Source: Candidatus Poribacteria bacterium (GTDB taxonomy: Bacteria; Poribacteria; WGA-4E; WGA-3G). Taken from it: DNA of 64,000 bases. A model generated the notes under the pieces. It had not been told where the DNA came from and searched no databases. It worked only from the letters and a program-made list of their open reading frames with translations. Numbering within the stretch: position 1 is the stretch's first letter; each line of letters begins with the position of its first letter. The translations under genes and the position numbers were made by a program. The stretch covers positions 1,120,001 through 1,184,000 of the forward strand of contig CAXXUA010000004.1 in NCBI GenBank assembly GCA_963663765.2. Direction: 5' to 3'. This document shows, in pieces, positions 14,151 through 18,933 of this stretch.

Positions 14151-14223
<73 letters not shown>

Positions 14224-14240
14224 AAACGTCCTAAGGTACA

Positions 14241-14313
14241 AGCGGGAGACGGGATTCGAACCCGCGACGCATGGCTTGGAAGGCCAATGCTCTACCAGCT
14301 GAGCTACTCCCGC
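14241..14313 (-). tRNA. tRNA-Gly(TCC)
   Basis: GCGGGAGTAGCTCAGCTGGTAGAGCATTGGCCTTCCAAGCCA...GGTTCGAATCCCGTCTCCCGCT. Confidence 0.95.
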
Positions 14314-14325
14314 AGAAAAAACCAA

Positions 14326-14407
14326 TGGGGGCGGACGGATTCGAACCGCCGTAGGCATAGCCAACAGATTTACAGTCTGCCCTTTTTGACCGCTCAAGCA
14401 CACCCCC
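14326..14407 (-). tRNA. tRNA-Tyr(GTA)
   Basis: GGGGGTGTGCTTGAGCGGTCAAAAAGGGCAGACTGTAAATCTG, long variable arm, GGTTCGAATCC. Confidence 0.95.
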
Positions 14408-14415
14408 AAAATAGA

Positions 14416-14487
14416 AGCTGACGAGAGGAATCGAACCTCCAACCTAGTGATTACAAATCACTCGCTCTACCGTTGAGCCACGTCAGC
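14416..14487 (-). tRNA. tRNA-Thr(TGT)
   Basis: GCTGACGTGGCTCAACGGTAGAGCGAGTGATTTGTAATCACT...GGTTCGATTCC. Confidence 0.95.
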
Positions 14488-14512
14488 ATTCAACCTTGTC
14501 TCTCTTCTATTA

Positions 14513-14965
14513 GTGATACTCACGACGAATAAAGTCGTGTGCTTCTTTGAAACACATAACTCTCCTCTGTGTGATTCCTGCTTCCGTCTCTCGTGCCTCT
14601 ATACTGAACTGCGCGAGGTCTTACTCGGACTCCAAAAGCGTTTATGCTCTCGGTATATCCTACCGCGAGGTAAAAGATTGATACGCACTCTGTATCTTAA
14701 TTTCCTTGATAATATAGCGTCTTGGGCGATGATGTCTACCGCAACTTGTCCCTCTGGGGATCCGCCAAGTTTTACTATAGGCACACTTCCCATAACTACG
14801 GTGCCAGTGGACTGCCTACTTGTTCGCAGTGTGGACTTCGGTTCGACATACGTTATTTCGCATTACGTTACAGAGCCTTGCTTGTCTCAAATAATTAAAA
14901 TACTCCCGCACGAGTTTACATTATTAGACCCAAGCCTAAAGACTTGGGATTGTCAGATAATTCCC
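14513..14965 (-). mobile_element. Non-autonomous IS200/IS605 derivative (PATE-like) with a TnpB omegaRNA-like right end
   Basis: Left-end hairpin CAAT-CCCAAGTCTTTAGGCTTGGG shortly after TGAA. Right end GAAG-CACACGACTTTATTCGTCGTGAGTA-TCAC. Internal GGTAGGATATACCG..AACGCTTTTGGAG..GTAAGACC..GAAGCAGGAA resembles tnpB 3' ends. No intact ORF, no TIRs. Confidence 0.7.
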
Positions 14966-15182
14966 TTCATAAAACGGGTAACACCTCAAACTCTATTGAG
15001 GTAAGACCTACGCACAAAACGGTAAGCACACTTTGTGTAAGCACACTGAAAACTGCGTAAATCCTATGAGGTAATTCAATATTCACCCCTTTAAGTATAC
15101 AAACTAAATTCACTATTGTCAAAAAAATATCTGATATGGATTGTCTATCGCAGCTGCGTAACAATTATCCCGTTCTTCAAAA

Positions 15183-15638
15183 TTATCCTGATTCTGTTGG
15201 TTCGGACTCAGAATCACCGTCATTGTTTTCCGATTCAGCAGTTTCAGACTCATCAGCAGTTTCAGACTCATCATCAGTTTCAGACTCATCAGCAGTTTCA
15301 GACTCATCAGCAGTTTCAGCCGCACTGTCACCAGAATCATCTCCACTATCTTCTACAGATTGTTCACCGTAAAGTTCAACTAAGTGATCCTCGCTATCAG
15401 ATTCAGAGGTAAAGAGTGCTGGTACTTCTTCCTGCGAAACTTTCGGATCAACCACATTATACGACAATTCTCCTGAAGACAACTCTTCTGTTGCTACAGT
15501 AATAGGTTTCTGATTCTGAGCGAAACCTGCTCCTAAAAGTTGGTCATTTAATGAACGCGCACGTTTTGCAATAACGTTTACTGCCAAATATTTATTCGGC
15601 ACATGCTTTATCAAATCTTCAAGGTAGACAATTGCCAT
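15183..15638 (-). CDS. rpoZ: RNA polymerase omega subunit with acidic repeat tail
   Basis: NKYLAVNVIAKRARSL...KPITVATEELSSGEL; GGAG RBS before MAIVY; tail of 18-bp (ADESET) repeats. Confidence 0.88.
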   Translation of the reverse strand: MAIVYLEDLIKHVPNKYLAVNVIAKRARSLNDQLLGAGFAQNQKPITVATEELSSGELSYNVVDPKVSQEEVPALFTSESDSEDHLVELYGEQSVEDSGDDSGDSAAETADESETADESETDDESETADESETAESENNDGDSESEPTESG

Positions 15639-15681
15639 TTGTATACTCCAATATGATTTTTTATGCATTACTCGTTGTATA

Positions 15682-15710
15682 ATTATACCAAAATTCTTGC
15701 TTGAAGTCAA
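15682..15710 (-). promoter_or_regulatory. Sigma70 promoter for rpoZ
   Basis: TTGACT-17-TATAAT with TG extension on the minus strand. Confidence 0.7.
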
Positions 15711-15718
15711 ATTAAATT

Positions 15719-15747
15719 TTGACATCTTCTCGGTTAAATGGTAGAAT
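15719..15747 (+). promoter_or_regulatory. Sigma70 promoter for mqnC (back-to-back with the rpoZ promoter)
   Basis: TTGACA-17-TAGAAT with TG extension. Confidence 0.7.
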
Positions 15748-15784: not shown

Positions 15785-16858
15785 ATGGGAATGCACAATA
15801 ACGTTAAATATATCTTGGAAAAAGCACTTGATGGGAAACGTTTAGACTTTGATGACGCACTAACCCTCTTTAAAAGTCATGATCTCCTTCCTTTAGGTCA
15901 TGCCGCTGATACTATCCGACAAAGAAAACACCCAGAAGGATACATTACTTATATTATAGATAGAAACATAAACTATACAAATTGGTGTTATGTTGATTGC
16001 GATTTCTGTGCATTTTATCGCCACCGAAAAGACCCCGATGCCTATGTAATGGAACGCGATCAACTCGGACAAAAAATACAAGAAACACTGGAGTTAGGCG
16101 GTGAACTCATTCTTATGCAAGGTGGACTCCACCCAAAACTCAAATTGGAGTGGTATGAAGATCTACTCCGATGGATAAAAGCGAACTACAAAATTCATAT
16201 ACACGGATTTTCTCCGCCAGAATTAGATTGGTTCGCCAAAATCAACAAAATGCCTTTACGTGAGATGCTCACACGACTACGTGATGCTGGTCTGGATTCT
16301 ATACCCGGAGGTGGAGCGGAAATCTTAACGGATCGCTCGCGGAACATCATCAGTCCTAAGAAATGCACCGCAGAGGAATGGCTTGAAGTGATGCGGCAAG
16401 GACACTACGTCAACCTCAAATCCAGTGCTACCATGATGTATGGACACGTAGAAAGTTACACAGAACGTGTTGAACATCTAATGAAATTGCGCGACCTGCA
16501 AGATGAAACAGGCGGATTCACAGCGTTTATCTGTTGGTCATTTCAACCCAGCAACACCGAACTTGCACACATCCCACCCGCAGGAAGTTACGAATACCTC
16601 AAAACATTAGCAATCTCACGCTTATTCTTAGATAACATTGATAACTTCCAATCATCGTGGGTTACACAAGGTCCCAAAATCGGACAACTCTCATTAAAGT
16701 TCGGAGCAAATGACATGGGAGGAACGATGATTGAAGAAAACGTCGTCAGCAAAGCAGGCACAGTTTATTGCATGCCAATTGAAGAAATAGAACGAACTAT
16801 CGCAGAATTGGGATATGTTCCAAAACGAAGAAACTTTTTCTATGACATTCTCAATTAA
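15785..16858 (+). CDS. mqnC: Cyclic dehypoxanthinyl futalosine synthase (radical SAM)
   Basis: YIIDRNINYTNWCYVDCDFCAFYR, SIPGGGAEIL, GGFTAFICWSFQP, SWVTQG, GANDMGGTMIEENVV. Confidence 0.92.
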   Translation: MGMHNNVKYILEKALDGKRLDFDDALTLFKSHDLLPLGHAADTIRQRKHPEGYITYIIDRNINYTNWCYVDCDFCAFYRHRKDPDAYVMERDQLGQKIQETLELGGELILMQGGLHPKLKLEWYEDLLRWIKANYKIHIHGFSPPELDWFAKINKMPLREMLTRLRDAGLDSIPGGGAEILTDRSRNIISPKKCTAEEWLEVMRQGHYVNLKSSATMMYGHVESYTERVEHLMKLRDLQDETGGFTAFICWSFQPSNTELAHIPPAGSYEYLKTLAISRLFLDNIDNFQSSWVTQGPKIGQLSLKFGANDMGGTMIEENVVSKAGTVYCMPIEEIERTIAELGYVPKRRNFFYDILN

Positions 16859-18933
16859 CGATAGTCCTCATGAATCCAAACATTCGCTGCTAACGCCTTT
16901 TTCCTTGCACCAAGCCAATTAACATACGCATCACTTTTCTTACTATCAAGAAGTGTCTTATAACGTTTAACCTTCTGCGTAGGATCCATTTGGTACTCTT
17001 CAAAATCCGGTTCTACACGTTCAACTAATTCTATAATATAAGTTGAAGAATCCTCAGCAAATGGTCCCCTCACATCCCCAACAGACATTGTAAACGCAGC
17101 TAACATCACACCTCTCGCGTACCCCATACCAGAAATATAAGTACTTCCTGCCACAAGACCAAAAAGGTTGCTCTCTTGAACAGTCTTTTCAGCAATTGAT
17201 GTGCCTTCAGGTGCTATATACTTTTTGATTAACGCCTCCAATGACACACCTTCTGTCCGTTGATCTATCAACTTCTGAGCATCTGCGAAAGCACGCTCTT
17301 TTGACTTCTCTCGTTCAACATCGTCTATCACTTGTCGCTTAACATCTTCAAACTCAGGAATGCCTGGTGCTTTCTTACCAAGAAGCGTCACAACAAAAAT
17401 GGCAGAAACTTCATTTGTGTATCTTGCTTTCGTCTCAATAGTGTTTGTAACGCCTACCTCCATGTCAAAAACTTCCTCTAACAATCCTCTGTAAAGTGTA
17501 CTTGATATTACTGGCGGAATATCTACGCCATCTTTACTGAAAAAACCCGTTTCACCAGATTCAAGCGATAGATCCTTATATTTATCAAGTCCAATAGCAG
17601 TCTCATAATCCGCAACCTCAATCTCAAAAATCAAATCTTTCGCTACGGCTTCTGCTCCATCCACACCATCTATCTGGACCAGTTTATCCTTAATATCGCT
17701 TTCTACTACTGGGAAAGGTGTCACTAAGGCTGGTTGCTTTTCTTCCAATTGGATAATGTGATACCCGAATTTGCTTTCAACAAGATCACTTACTTCACCC
17801 GGTTGTAATACATCAAAACACGCTTCTGCAAAAGGCTTTACCGCATATCCGCGATCAAAATATTTACCCTCTGGCAAATGATCATAACTTCTACCCAACG
17901 CACCACCATCAACCGCACTACTATCCTCTGAATGCTTCTCAGCAAGGTCAGCAAATGTTGTACCTGCAGCCATTTCTTCTTTTACAGTTTTGAGTAGTTC
18001 TTCCGCAGCCGCTTTTGTTTCCGTTTTTTGTTCATCGGTGGCATCGTCTGGGAACTTTTTCAAAATATGTCGTGCTTTGACTAATTCAGGGTTCATGAAG
18101 ATGTTCTGATTATTTGTGTAATACTGTTCAATAGTTGCCTGTGTAACAAAATGCTCAGGATTAACATTGATATAACGGATATTTACCTGCTCTTCGGTTG
18201 CATAGTCTTCCTTGTTTTCTTGGAAGTACTTATCAATCTCTGCTTTGTTTTCTTGGAAGTACTTATCAATATCTACATCCTCTACATCCTCTACATCCTC
18301 TACATCCTCTACATCCTCTACATCCTCTACATCCTCTACATCCTCTACATCCTCTACATCCTCTACATCCTCTGCATCAAAGGTTTTTTCGTAATCGCTG
18401 TGTCGAAATTCAATGAATTTCACCTTTGCTTTGTTCGCCTCAAGTTGATAATCCTGTTCCGCTTCAGTGTCAGTAACTAATTCAAGGCTTTGGATACCAT
18501 CTCGTAGTGAAGACGTACTGAGTTGATATCTATAGAAATCCAGCACATCAGGTCCGAATTGATTATATGTTAATACCCGGTTTTCATCACTTCGGATATA
18601 ATGCATTACCTCAGAATCGGTGATATTCGCACTACCTTCAATGATCCTTGTTATATAACTATTAATTAATTGCTTTTGTATCGCTTTCCGATCTGGTTCC
18701 GCACCAAACCTTGGGTTCTGTTGCTGTTGGCGTACTACTTGTGAAATACGATCTTCAAAAACCCTTCTTGTAACTTCCAATGTGTCAAGCTTGAGTACAA
18801 CTTCGTCTTCAGTTCCCGTATTCTGTTGACCACCAGAACCACCATACAACATTATGGTACCAATAATGAAGACAACAGCAATTATCCACATAAATATCTG
18901 TGCTATGAATTTTTCACGTAGAAAAATAATCAT
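16855..18933 (-). CDS. PpiD/SurA-like membrane-anchored peptidyl-prolyl isomerase chaperone
   Basis: N-terminal anchor and SurA-N-like region; parvulin motifs VKARHIL, FADLAEKHSED, VSDLVESKFGYHIIQL. Confidence 0.85.
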   Translation of the reverse strand: MIIFLREKFIAQIFMWIIAVVFIIGTIMLYGGSGGQQNTGTEDEVVLKLDTLEVTRRVFEDRISQVVRQQQQNPRFGAEPDRKAIQKQLINSYITRIIEGSANITDSEVMHYIRSDENRVLTYNQFGPDVLDFYRYQLSTSSLRDGIQSLELVTDTEAEQDYQLEANKAKVKFIEFRHSDYEKTFDAEDVEDVEDVEDVEDVEDVEDVEDVEDVEDVEDVDIDKYFQENKAEIDKYFQENKEDYATEEQVNIRYINVNPEHFVTQATIEQYYTNNQNIFMNPELVKARHILKKFPDDATDEQKTETKAAAEELLKTVKEEMAAGTTFADLAEKHSEDSSAVDGGALGRSYDHLPEGKYFDRGYAVKPFAEACFDVLQPGEVSDLVESKFGYHIIQLEEKQPALVTPFPVVESDIKDKLVQIDGVDGAEAVAKDLIFEIEVADYETAIGLDKYKDLSLESGETGFFSKDGVDIPPVISSTLYRGLLEEVFDMEVGVTNTIETKARYTNEVSAIFVVTLLGKKAPGIPEFEDVKRQVIDDVEREKSKERAFADAQKLIDQRTEGVSLEALIKKYIAPEGTSIAEKTVQESNLFGLVAGSTYISGMGYARGVMLAAFTMSVGDVRGPFAEDSSTYIIELVERVEPDFEEYQMDPTQKVKRYKTLLDSKKSDAYVNWLGARKKALAANVWIHEDYR
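18272..18370. repeat. In-frame VNTR, 11 x 9 bp (TCTACATCC), encoding (EDV)n
   Basis: Perfect tandem units read directly; adjacent duplication encodes IDKYFQENK twice. Confidence 0.95.

What the first reader, a model, noticed from the sequence alone, without database searches (positions are those of the whole stretch)
14488..14965. Protein-free IS605 derivative keeping an omegaRNA-like scaffold in the tRNA operon leader, with a candidate 25-nt guide ending at tRNA +1
Seen: on the minus strand, a left-end hairpin preceded by CAAT with TGAA 13 nt upstream, and a right-end hairpin preceded by GAAG and ending TCAC. Both fit the guide/cleavage tetranucleotide pairing known from IS608/ISDra2. The interior has only scraps of a TnpB C-terminus (SCGRHH...INLL), while the last ~165 nt resemble tnpB 3'-end omegaRNA scaffolds. 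Known: TnpB guides are the flank just 3' of the right end. Here that flank is TAATAGAAGAGAGACAAGGTTGAAT, followed immediately by tRNA-Thr(TGT). Inference: co-transcription with the tRNA operon and RNase P cleavage could release an abundant, defined trans-acting omegaRNA for a TnpB or TldR encoded elsewhere, targeting the empty allele (predicted TAM ending in TGAA) or another locus.
Basis: partly seen in the sequence, partly recalled or inferred. Interest (0 to 1): 0.72.

Follow-up and report, generated by a model that had tools for sequence, protein, structure and literature searches.

The report
Gene-less transposon guide-RNA element before tRNAs
A 454-base, protein-free relative of a small transposon sits between the promoter and the first tRNA of an essential tRNA operon in a sponge-symbiont bacterium, keeps the guide-RNA scaffold used by a DNA-cutting enzyme encoded elsewhere in the genome, and also carries a conserved folded RNA module that matches no described family.

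Summary
On the minus strand, a 454-bp protein-free IS200/IS605 element (a PATE, or "standalone omegaRNA" element) lies at 14966..14513. It is inserted after TGAA. A 25-nt flank separates its right end from tRNA-Thr(UGU) +1.

- **Cognate copies:** the genome (a Candidatus Poribacteria MAG) holds a second copy and four intact 1382-bp tnpB-only elements with the same ends.
- **Empty sites:** none of 23 same-genus genomes has the element here. The 10 loci I read keep the promoter directly upstream of the tRNA.
- **Co-transcription:** tRNA-Gly(UCC) and tRNA-Thr(GGU) are single-copy and lie downstream, so transcription must pass through the scaffold and flank. RNase P would then set a 3' end 25 nt past the scaffold.
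- **Other targets:** no other genomic target for this guide exists.

This is a known kind. Standalone omegaRNAs acting in trans are in print, and this scan noted similar omegaRNA-tRNA cassettes in phage DNA.

The interior is new. It is not tnpB debris but a 189-nt, 10-helix RNA domain with strong covariation. It has no Rfam match and occurs only in such elements in two Poribacteria genera. Its function is unknown. Expression as a discrete RNA is not shown.

The parts
15094..15122 (-). Sigma-70-type promoter of the tRNA operon (TTGACA-17-TATACT, preceded by a T run)
   Evidence: Matches 11 of 12 consensus positions. The same T-run plus TTGACA...TATACT motif stands upstream of tRNA-Thr in all 10 same-genus loci I read.
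14972..15093 (-). Native leader between the promoter and the insertion point
   Evidence: It lies between the conserved promoter and the element. Relatives have leaders of about 25-120 nt with no element.
14967..14970 (-). TGAA target site, the predicted TAM, abutting the left end
   Evidence: TGAA precedes 25 of 27 family copies.
14513..14966 (-). Protein-free IS200/IS605 element (PATE), 454 bp
   Evidence: Its ends are shared with 4 intact 1382-bp tnpB elements and a second 96-98% identical copy at contig C4:19645-20102. It is absent at this site in 23 same-genus genomes.
14930..14953 (-). Left-end subterminal hairpin with the preceding CAAT tetranucleotide
   Evidence: Read directly. The hairpin shows compensatory changes among copies (columns 24-44).
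14705..14893 (-). PATE-specific structured RNA domain: 189 nt, 10 helices in two sub-domains closed by UUUGA/UCAAA
   Evidence: - No match to the parental tnpB element.
- 96% of cells paired, 13 pairs with compensatory change, 0 of 500 shuffles as high, slid controls 36-43% paired.
- Many G-U pairs fit only this strand.
- No Rfam hit in 13 copies.
14672..14711 (-). Degraded remnant of the last ~13 codons of tnpB (YQxD..INL); it also forms the 3' strand of the domain's closing helix
   Evidence: Alignment to intact copies and weak tblastn traces.
14513..14671 (-). OmegaRNA-scaffold region plus right end, matched to the resident intact tnpB elements
   Evidence: - 93-94% identical to the 3' ends of intact copies.
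- Stems are supported by covariation.
- Hairpin 1 differs from the parent by two compensatory pairs.
- One pair is broken in this copy only: U14635 opposite C14580.
14521..14545 (-). Right-end subterminal hairpin with the preceding GAAG. The element then ends AGTATCAC at 14513.
   Evidence: Copies in genus g13 have GAAT...TCAA where this genus has GAAG...TCAC.
14488..14512 (-). 25-nt flank, the would-be guide. It is native tRNA leader sequence.
   Evidence: Homologous leader sequence precedes the tRNA in relatives that lack the element. No other TGAA-flanked match in the genome with up to 3 mismatches in 16 nt.
14151..14487 (-). tRNA-Thr(UGU), tRNA-Tyr(GUA), tRNA-Gly(UCC) and tRNA-Thr(GGU), spaced 7-17 nt apart
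   Evidence: Gly(UCC) and Thr(GGU) are single-copy in the assembly.

Best explanation
This is a recent insertion of a non-autonomous IS200/IS605 element. Such elements are called PATEs, or 'standalone omegaRNA' elements. It sits in the leader of the thrU-tyrU-glyT-thrT-type tRNA operon of a Candidatus Poribacteria genome.

The element is a mosaic of three parts:
1. A left end.
2. A 189-nt structured RNA domain found only in this PATE lineage.
3. The roughly 200-nt omegaRNA scaffold and right end of the resident tnpB-only IS family. Four intact copies of that family each encode a 368-aa ISDra2-like TnpB.

The PATE has lost the -35 box that the parent carries behind its left end. It lies between the operon's only conserved promoter and single-copy tRNAs. 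So it is transcribed as part of the pre-tRNA (inferred).

RNase P cleavage at tRNA +1 would leave an RNA ending in the scaffold plus the 25-nt flank (inferred from established tRNA processing).

Loaded in trans onto resident TnpB, that RNA would recognise only TGAA + TAATAGAAG.... This is the donor joint that TnpA excision would create. Cleaving it would let the element be copied back from a sister chromosome. This is the published selfish retention function, not a host function (inferred).

The extra domain most likely serves the PATE's own RNA. It may stabilise, insulate or process the trans-acting precursor. This step is the least certain.
For: **Identity and boundaries**
- Eight copies in the genome share the ends.
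- There are four intact 368-aa TnpB ORFs.
- Pfam finds OrfB_IS605, Cas12f1-like_TNB and HTH_OrfB_IS605.
- The protein matches ISDra2 TnpB structures 8h1j and 8bf8 at E about 1e-45 over its full length.
- Six Y1 transposase hits are in the genome.

**Recent mobility**
- Two copies in this genome are 96-98% identical.
- There are 18 copies in 5 of 40 genus genomes.
- The site is empty in 23 of 23 same-genus genomes with an informative match. I read 10 of those loci.

**Scaffold kept**
- The region is homologous to the parent's 3' end, and its stems are supported by covariation.

**Forced co-transcription**
- The conserved promoter lies upstream of the element.
- Gaps between the tRNAs are only 7-17 nt.
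- tRNA-Gly(UCC) and tRNA-Thr(GGU) are single-copy.
- The parent's TTGACA behind the left end is absent in the PATE.
- Near-consensus promoter-like sites (11 of 12 or better) lie upstream and co-oriented at 5 of 24 distinct insertion sites. None was found in three control scans.
- A second, independent family member sits between a TTGACA-17-TATACT promoter and tRNA-Val in genome G117.

**Guide specificity**
- No other TGAA-flanked match exists in the genome.

**Concept in print**
- PMC10691335 passage and Meers et al. preprint passage.
Against: - No discrete RNA is shown. Only assembled contigs of RNA libraries were available. DNA can be present in such libraries, and none of them covers the flank or joins it to the scaffold.
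- One RNA-library contig of a near-identical strain stops at 14538 next to adapter letters. That is 25 nt before the right end. If this is an RNA 3' end, that molecule lacks the guide.
- This copy has one broken pair (U14635 opposite C14580) in a 5-bp stem that is intact in the other 15 copies examined.
- The insertion is specific to this species or strain. Nothing shows selection for it.
- Leader fragments released by RNase P are normally short-lived (established knowledge).
- The co-orientation with neighbouring genes could come from the known strand bias of IS200/IS605 insertion rather than from a need for host promoters.
Confidence: 0.6

Rival explanations
1. Inert passenger. The element is a tolerated insertion in a leader that is discarded anyway. 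Its RNA is made but degraded together with the leader, and it is never used by TnpB.
For: - The insertion is strain- or species-specific.
- One scaffold pair is broken in this copy.
- RNA-library contigs do not cover the flank.
- Leaders are normally degraded (established knowledge).
Against: - All parts needed for trans use are present and intact elsewhere: four tnpB genes, 93-94% identical scaffolds, and a TGAA TAM.
- The family is actively spreading.
- Standalone omegaRNAs have been reported to work in trans (PMC10691335 passage).
Confidence: 0.25
2. IStron-like arrangement. The 189-nt domain is a ribozyme, self-cleaving or self-splicing. It would remove or trim the element at the RNA level, so that insertions in leaders and 5' UTRs do no harm, and it would free the omegaRNA 5' end.
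For: - The architecture (left end, structured RNA, omegaRNA/right end) mirrors a mini-IStron (Zedaveinyte et al. preprint passages).
- Junction nucleotides are invariant between genera, while stems co-vary.
- Copies lie in leaders and 5' UTRs.
Against: - No group I or other ribozyme family of Rfam matches at E up to 10 in 13 copies.
- The element follows an A and ends in C. Group I introns follow a U and end in G (established knowledge).
- No joined form appears in four laid runs. These are contigs only, so this is weak.
- One RNA-library contig spans the unspliced left junction.
Confidence: 0.1
3. Host-domesticated element. It would be either a purpose-built guide gene for a TnpB or TldR that acts on another locus, or a leader that regulates tRNA operon output.
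For: It has a strong stable-RNA promoter and a defined 3' end. A second tRNA-leader case exists in G117.
Against: - The guide is simply the old leader, which is homologous in relatives without the element.
- There is no other genomic target.
- The insertion is not conserved in any of 23 relatives.
- The cognate TnpBs align along their whole length with active ISDra2 TnpB, including the DRD...N motif region.
- TldR genes were not searched for.
Confidence: 0.03

Closest known systems
PATEs (palindrome-associated transposable elements) of IS200/IS605, including those that encode omegaRNAs. Sources: Dyall-Smith et al. 2011, PMC3119063, passages read; Meers et al. 2023 preprint 10.1101/2023.03.14.532601, passages read.
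   Same: - No terminal inverted repeats.
- Subterminal hairpins at both ends.
- No target duplication.
- Too short for a transposase.
- Ends shared with resident IS605-type elements.
- Carries an omegaRNA that needs a TnpB from another element.
   Different: It carries an extra 189-nt conserved structured domain that does not derive from the parent IS. Its right-end module has been exchanged to match the resident IS. It sits inside a tRNA-operon leader.
Standalone omegaRNAs of OMEGA systems that act in trans. Source: a statement in Altae-Tran et al. 2023, PMC10691335, passage read. The primary 2021 paper was not read.
   Same: A mobilised omegaRNA locus without effector or transposase, in the same genome as compatible effector-bearing loci.
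   Different: Here the transcript is supplied by a tRNA promoter, and the guide's 3' end would be set by RNase P. Activity was not tested.
IStrons: a group I intron fused to IS605/IS607 tnpB elements. Source: Zedaveinyte et al. preprint 10.1101/2023.11.20.567912, passages read.
   Same: A structured RNA module lies between the left end and the omegaRNA/right end. The engineered 'mini-IS' in that paper has the same layout.
   Different: The module here has no group I signature, is about 190 nt rather than several hundred, and its boundaries do not fit group I splice rules. No tnpB-bearing version with this module was found.
ISDra2 TnpB-omegaRNA (PDB 8h1j, 8bf8, 8exa)
   Same: The cognate TnpB is a full-length homologue (E about 1e-45). 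The scaffold overlaps the tnpB stop codon and the right end, and the guide is the 3' flank.
   Different: The TAM is TGAA rather than TTGAT (the ISDra2 TAM is recalled; the IStron passage mentions a similar TTGAT). The protein is 368 aa against 408 aa.

Membership tests
PATE (non-autonomous IS200/IS605 element) | Subterminal palindromes near both ends and no terminal inverted repeats | tested here: met
   The left-end hairpin is at 14949..14930 and the right-end hairpin at 14541..14521. Both have a CTTTAK-type loop. The ends do not form inverted repeats.
PATE (non-autonomous IS200/IS605 element) | Inserted next to a short target word, without target duplication | tested here: met
   TGAA lies 5' of 25 of 27 copies. 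The 3' flanks are unrelated and do not repeat TGAA.
PATE (non-autonomous IS200/IS605 element) | Too short to encode a transposase or TnpB | tested here: met
   The element is 454 bp. The listed ORFs inside it are a 64-aa sense ORF, a 31-aa sense ORF, and antisense ORFs of 44, 58 and 163 aa. Indels of 3, 5, 15 and 18 nt among copies break any common frame. tblastn with TnpB finds nothing within 1.5 kb of 15 copies in other genera.
PATE (non-autonomous IS200/IS605 element) | Ends related to those of a coding IS605-type element in the same genome | tested here: met
   Four 1382-bp tnpB elements share the left end (87-89%) and the right end (93-94%).
TnpB omegaRNA (standalone, trans-acting) | Scaffold homologous to the 3' end of tnpB plus the right end, ending at the transposon boundary | tested here: met
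   PATE positions 261-459 align to parent positions 1181-1382 at 85%. Hairpin 1 spans the tnpB stop codon in the parent.
TnpB omegaRNA (standalone, trans-acting) | Conserved secondary structure of the scaffold | tested here: met
   In the scaffold region (A2 columns 382-494), RNAalifold predicts 22 pairs, 6 of them with compensatory change. In this copy 17 of 18 applicable pairs are intact and one is U opposite C. No curated omegaRNA model matched, so the test rests on homology alone.
TnpB omegaRNA (standalone, trans-acting) | A compatible, apparently active TnpB in the same genome | tested here: met
   Four intact 368-aa ORFs, with Pfam domains, aligning over their full length to ISDra2 TnpB.
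TnpB omegaRNA (standalone, trans-acting) | The RNA is expressed with its guide, is bound by TnpB, and directs TAM-dependent cleavage | not testable with these tools
   Only contigs of RNA libraries could be laid. They cover 14514..15189 in pieces but not the flank.
IStron (group I intron in an IS605/IS607 element) | A recognisable group I intron core | tested here: not met
   No Rfam family matches inside the element at E up to 10, in the window or in 12 further copies.
IStron (group I intron in an IS605/IS607 element) | A spliced (joined) RNA form | tested here: inconclusive
   No joints appear in 4 laid runs, but these are contigs, which drop rare forms.
TldR-type domesticated guide | A nuclease-dead TnpB homologue with a fixed guide against a host promoter | not tested
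   No search for TldR was made. The flank has no second target, and the four cognate TnpBs align through the C-terminal RuvC/zinc-finger region.

The most novel reading that the evidence does not exclude
The 189-nt domain may be a new class of functional RNA that IS605 PATEs carry in place of tnpB. It could be a ribozyme, or a ligand- or protein-binding fold. It would be the counterpart of the group I intron of IStrons, and would process, protect or neutralise the transcript. On this reading, this PATE lineage lives by hijacking strong host promoters. These include tRNA operons, where RNase P would tailor the guide's 3' end.
Probability: 0.15. Interest if true: 0.8.

Novelty: new variant of a known kind. 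Interest (0 to 1): 0.5.

Why it matters

Two points go beyond that.

1. **Placement.** The position forces expression from a stable-RNA promoter, and host tRNA processing would give the guide a defined 3' end. A second, independent family member shows the same arrangement. By unchecked notes of this scan, so do phage elements. This suggests tRNA leaders are a favoured niche for such parasites of parasites.

2. **Cargo.** The element carries a strongly constrained 10-helix RNA domain that matches no described family and is absent from the protein-coding parent. If the domain has a catalytic or regulatory activity, it would be a second case, after IStrons, of a structured RNA co-opted by TnpB-dependent transposons. 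It would also be a candidate part for engineering guide-RNA expression.

Tried and rejected
**Known RNA families.** Rfam was run at gathering score on the whole window. It was also run at E up to 10 on 14300-15300 and on 12 other copies. Only tRNAs and chance hits came back.

**TnpB coding remnants in the interior.** tblastn found only a weak YQxD..INL trace. 'SCGRHH' is not supported.

**Antisense 153-aa ORF spanning the element.** It is open in the two copies of this genome. It is broken by indels in other copies, so I rejected it.

**Off-target search for the guide.** There is no TGAA-flanked match. A 17-of-20 look-alike present 13 times lies inside another multi-copy element. It is preceded by ATCACA, not TGAA, so it is chance.

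**Internal promoter TAGACA-16-TATATT at 14738..14711.** It overlaps helices of the RNA domain. The C-to-A change that improves its -10 box is one half of a compensatory pair (U117-A185). I therefore treat it as probably fortuitous, though it is not excluded as a start site.

**Wider searches for the domain.**
- An exact-pattern scan of one genome per species gave 24 stretches, all titled Candidatus Poribacteria, and all of those with both ends in the fetched stretch were copies already in hand.
- The metagenome scan gave one contig holding a 3'-truncated copy.
- The covariance model found 15 of 151 phylum genomes, all in one family.
- In this genome it found only the two PATE copies, even at E up to 10.
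- No tnpB-bearing parent with the domain was found.

**RNA evidence.**
- Contigs of three metatranscriptome runs cover parts of the element.
- One contig spans 14538..15189 with 11 differences and ends at adapter letters.
- Another contig joins the right end to a different flank, so it comes from another copy.
- No contig covers 14488..14513, and no joints were seen.
- These are contigs only and may include DNA. They are no evidence for or against a discrete RNA.

**Literature.** No paper in the held library linked Poribacteria with TnpB, IS605 or IS200, or named a Poribacteria RNA motif. None of the top 15 listed papers in the search for TnpB, PATE and tRNA describes a natural omegaRNA-tRNA cassette, judging from titles and abstract starts only. 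Supplements were closed. Extended Data on PATEs in Meers et al. and the primary 2021 OMEGA paper were not seen.

Full report
**The observation.** Read on the minus strand, the region is laid out as follows:
- TGAA at 14970..14967, 13 nt, CAAT, then a left-end hairpin at 14949..14930;
- about 400 nt of interior;
- GAAG, then a right-end hairpin at 14541..14521, then AGTATCAC ending at 14513;
- the 25-nt flank TAATAGAAGAGAGACAAGGTTGAAT at 14512..14488;
- tRNA-Thr(UGU) at 14487..14416, then tRNA-Tyr, tRNA-Gly(UCC), tRNA-Thr(GGU), rpmG and tRNA-Trp.

**It is a real mobile element with exactly these boundaries.** A search of the window's own genome (6.35 Mb, 15 contigs) with the element gave 42 matches. 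These include:
- a second short copy at contig C4:19645-20102, 96-98% identical;
- four 1382-bp copies;
- a 653-bp deletion derivative;
- a 1778-bp broken copy;
- solo right ends.

All eight complete copies begin after (A/G/T)ATGAA with GGGAATT.... All end ...GAGTATCAC, and their flanks are unrelated beyond those points.

Each 1382-bp copy has an intact 368-aa ORF. That ORF carries the Pfam domains OrfB_IS605, Cas12f1-like_TNB and HTH_OrfB_IS605. It aligns over its whole length with ISDra2 TnpB structures 8h1j and 8bf8 at E about 1e-45. The genome also has six Y1-transposase matches, four of them strong and open.

So a cognate TnpB with the same ends exists four times.

**The scaffold is retained.**
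- PATE positions 261-459 align to positions 1181-1382 of the intact element at 85%. The last 158 nt are 93-94% identical.
- In the parent, the first hairpin of this region spans the tnpB stop codon. The PATE's version differs by two compensatory pairs (CGGUA/UACCG against CUGUC/GACAG).
- Across 16 copies from two genera, RNAalifold predicts four helices in this region, 22 pairs in all. Six of those pairs have compensatory change.
- In the window's copy, 17 of the 18 applicable pairs are intact. One is broken: U14635 opposite C14580, where every other copy has G-C or C-G.
- An RNA-library contig from a near-identical strain carries the intact G at that place (position 14635).
- No curated omegaRNA model exists among the Rfam hits. 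Membership therefore rests on homology to the 3' ends of intact tnpB elements, not on an independent model.

**The site, and why the RNA must be made.**
- A near-consensus promoter (TTGACA-17-TATACT, 11 of 12 positions) lies at 15122..15094, upstream of the element.
- In 23 of 24 same-genus genomes, the match to this operon starts at query position 891-913, just past the right end at 888. The 24th is cut by a contig end.
- I read 10 of those loci. All have the same T-run plus TTGACA...TATACT promoter, then 25 to about 120 nt, then the tRNA. None has the element.
- Their last 20-25 nt before the tRNA are homologous to the 'guide'. The guide is therefore simply the old leader.
- The gaps between the tRNAs are 7-17 nt.
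- ARAGORN finds tRNA-Gly(UCC) and tRNA-Thr(GGU) only once in the 97.8%-complete assembly.
- Hence the operon must be transcribed either from the conserved promoter through the whole element or from within the element. In both cases the transcript passes through the right end and the flank.
- The PATE has also lost the TTGACA that the intact elements carry just behind the left-end hairpin. This fits dependence on outside promoters.
- RNase P cleavage at +1 is established biology and would give a 3' end at 14488.
- These steps are inferences. They were not observed.

**Direct RNA evidence is inconclusive.** Ten RNA-labelled runs hold part of the stretch. I laid three of them and one further run. 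All are assembled contigs.
- One 674-nt contig from a strain with 11 differences spans 14538..15189. That covers the promoter region, the leader, the left junction and most of the element. It ends at 14538 next to adapter letters.
- Another contig joins the right end to a different flank, so it comes from another copy.
- Nothing covers 14488..14513, and no joined (spliced or excised) form was seen.
- DNA carry-over cannot be excluded.

**Target of the guide.** With up to 3 mismatches in the first 16 nt, no genomic site preceded by TGAA matches the flank. A 13-copy 17-of-20 look-alike lies inside another repeated element and follows ATCACA, so it is chance. The only sensible target is the donor joint TGAA|TAATAG... 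that excision would create. This is the published retention (homing) role of TnpB (Meers et al. preprint, passages).

**What is known.**
- PATEs are defined in Dyall-Smith et al. 2011 (passages).
- Altae-Tran et al. [quoted passage not shown]
- The core idea of the finding is therefore in print.
- Two unchecked notes of this scan (e1-5917372 and e1-5747154) describe promoter-omegaRNA-guide-tRNA or promoter-omegaRNA-guide-gene cassettes in phage DNA. The scan has thus met this arrangement before on other DNA.

**The interior is a separate, conserved structured RNA domain.**
- PATE positions about 55-260 have no DNA or protein-level match to the intact element.
- Yet among 17 copies from five species of the genus they are the best-conserved part. 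Between this copy and one from G020, the domain is 93% identical and the 3' part only 61%.
- A family-wide search found 72-79% identical versions in a second genus. These too lie in protein-free 430-500-bp elements, with TGAA and a similar left end. Their right end is different, ending GTCAA after a GAAT-preceded hairpin.
- With these copies I derived a 10-helix model for window 14893..14705.
- On 19 distinct sequences, 96% of cells pair, and 13 of 47 pairs show compensatory change. None of 500 shuffles reaches the observed values. Sliding the partners drops pairing to 36-43%.
- Frequent G-U pairs fit only the strand shared with tnpB and the tRNAs.
- Junction nucleotides are invariant between the genera.
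- No Rfam family matches in 13 copies.
- A covariance model finds the domain in 15 of 151 sampled genomes of the phylum, all in one family (genera g1 and g13). In this genome it finds only the two PATE copies, even at E up to 10.
- An exact-pattern scan of one genome per prokaryote species hit only records titled Candidatus Poribacteria. This also names the organism.
- The metagenome scan added one 3'-truncated copy.
- No version of the domain linked to a tnpB gene was found.
- Its function is unknown.
- It is not a group I intron by Rfam. By recalled splice rules it is also not one, because the element follows A and ends in C.

**Mosaic structure.**
- The copy in this genome shares its left end, domain and first hairpin with PATEs of other species.
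- It shares its last ~158 nt with the resident tnpB family.
- Genus g13 and genome G024 carry the same backbone with two other right-end types.
- The PATE backbone thus appears to swap right-end/scaffold modules to match local partners (inference).
- Between the two main right-end types, the tetranucleotide before the hairpin and the terminal tetranucleotide change together: GAAG/TCAC against GAAT/TCAA. I did not test that rule itself.

**Habit of sitting behind promoters.**
- Promoter-like sites matching 11 of 12 positions or better lie within 160 nt upstream, co-oriented, at 5 of 24 distinct insertion sites. Three orthologous duplicates were dropped.
- No such site was found in any of three control scans: upstream opposite strand, downstream same strand, downstream opposite strand.
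- In G117 a family member lies 21 nt behind a TTGACA-17-TATACT promoter and 34 nt before tRNA-Val(UAC)-tRNA-Asp.
- Two tRNA-leader insertions among about 24 sites is more than intergenic chance would suggest. The count is post hoc, however. The co-orientation could also reflect the known strand bias of IS200/IS605 insertion.

**Verdict.** The reading as a protein-free IS605 derivative with an omegaRNA scaffold in a tRNA leader is correct. So are the predicted TAM, the empty site in relatives and the existence of a cognate TnpB. Use of the RNA is plausible but unshown, and the concept is already published. The part worth further work is the PATE-specific structured domain, together with the recurrent promoter and tRNA-leader placement.

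Noticed in passing
L064 1376-1939 (genome G117, genus g13): A second, independent family member sits 21 nt behind a TTGACA-17-TATACT promoter. It ends (GTGTCAA at 1830) 34 nt before tRNA-Val(UAC), which is followed by tRNA-Asp. This is the same leader arrangement as in the window.
   Followed up: partly
window 14513-14671 compared with copies in G020/G003 and with contig C4:532142-533523: The PATE is a mosaic. Its left end, domain and hairpin 1 resemble PATEs of other species (domain 93% identical to a G020 copy). Its last ~158 nt match the resident tnpB family (93-94%) but are only about 60% identical to those other PATEs. Genus g13 and genome G024 carry the same backbone with other right-end types.
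   Followed up: partly
window 14538: A metatranscriptome contig of a near-identical strain (11 differences) runs from 15189 to 14538 and there abuts sequencing-adapter letters. That is the foot of the penultimate hairpin, 25 nt before the right end. It could be a preferred RNA or cDNA end, or an artefact.
   Followed up: no
own genome, e.g. C5:293085-293171, C5:546493-546579, C13:578110-578196 (about 20 places): A second, more numerous repeat family matches 91 nt of the scaffold region at 75-77% identity. It is probably another tnpB element family with a related omegaRNA.
   Followed up: no
own genome, C13:154887-155539 and C4:53419-55196: A 653-bp internal-deletion derivative and a 1778-bp copy with a split tnpB ORF, both from the same IS family. 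These are stages between the intact element and protein-free forms.
   Followed up: partly
L139 (metagenome contig), around 1330-1800 of its reverse strand: A copy of the domain that lacks helix Pg and has lost the scaffold and right end. It lies directly upstream of a long, apparently membrane-protein ORF. I read it as a truncated remnant, not as a domesticated leader.
   Followed up: partly
L036 1353-1428 and 1502-1977 (genome G003): A PATE copy lies 74 nt from the 5' end of a divergently oriented tRNA-Ser(UGA) gene, in or near its promoter region.
   Followed up: no
window 15183-15725 (minus strand) and 16855-18933 (minus strand): The ORF upstream of the promoter ends in an acidic tail of near-tandem ETADES/ETDDES repeats. 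The 692-aa ORF further on holds a run of ten DVE repeats. Both are low-complexity acidic inserts in otherwise ordinary-looking genes.
   Followed up: no
own genome, 13 places such as C5:354245 and C6:478483: A 13-copy repeat (another mobile element, apparently coding) contains a 20-mer that matches 17 of 20 positions of the tRNA leader 'guide'. It follows ATCACA, not TGAA. I judged it chance.
   Followed up: yes
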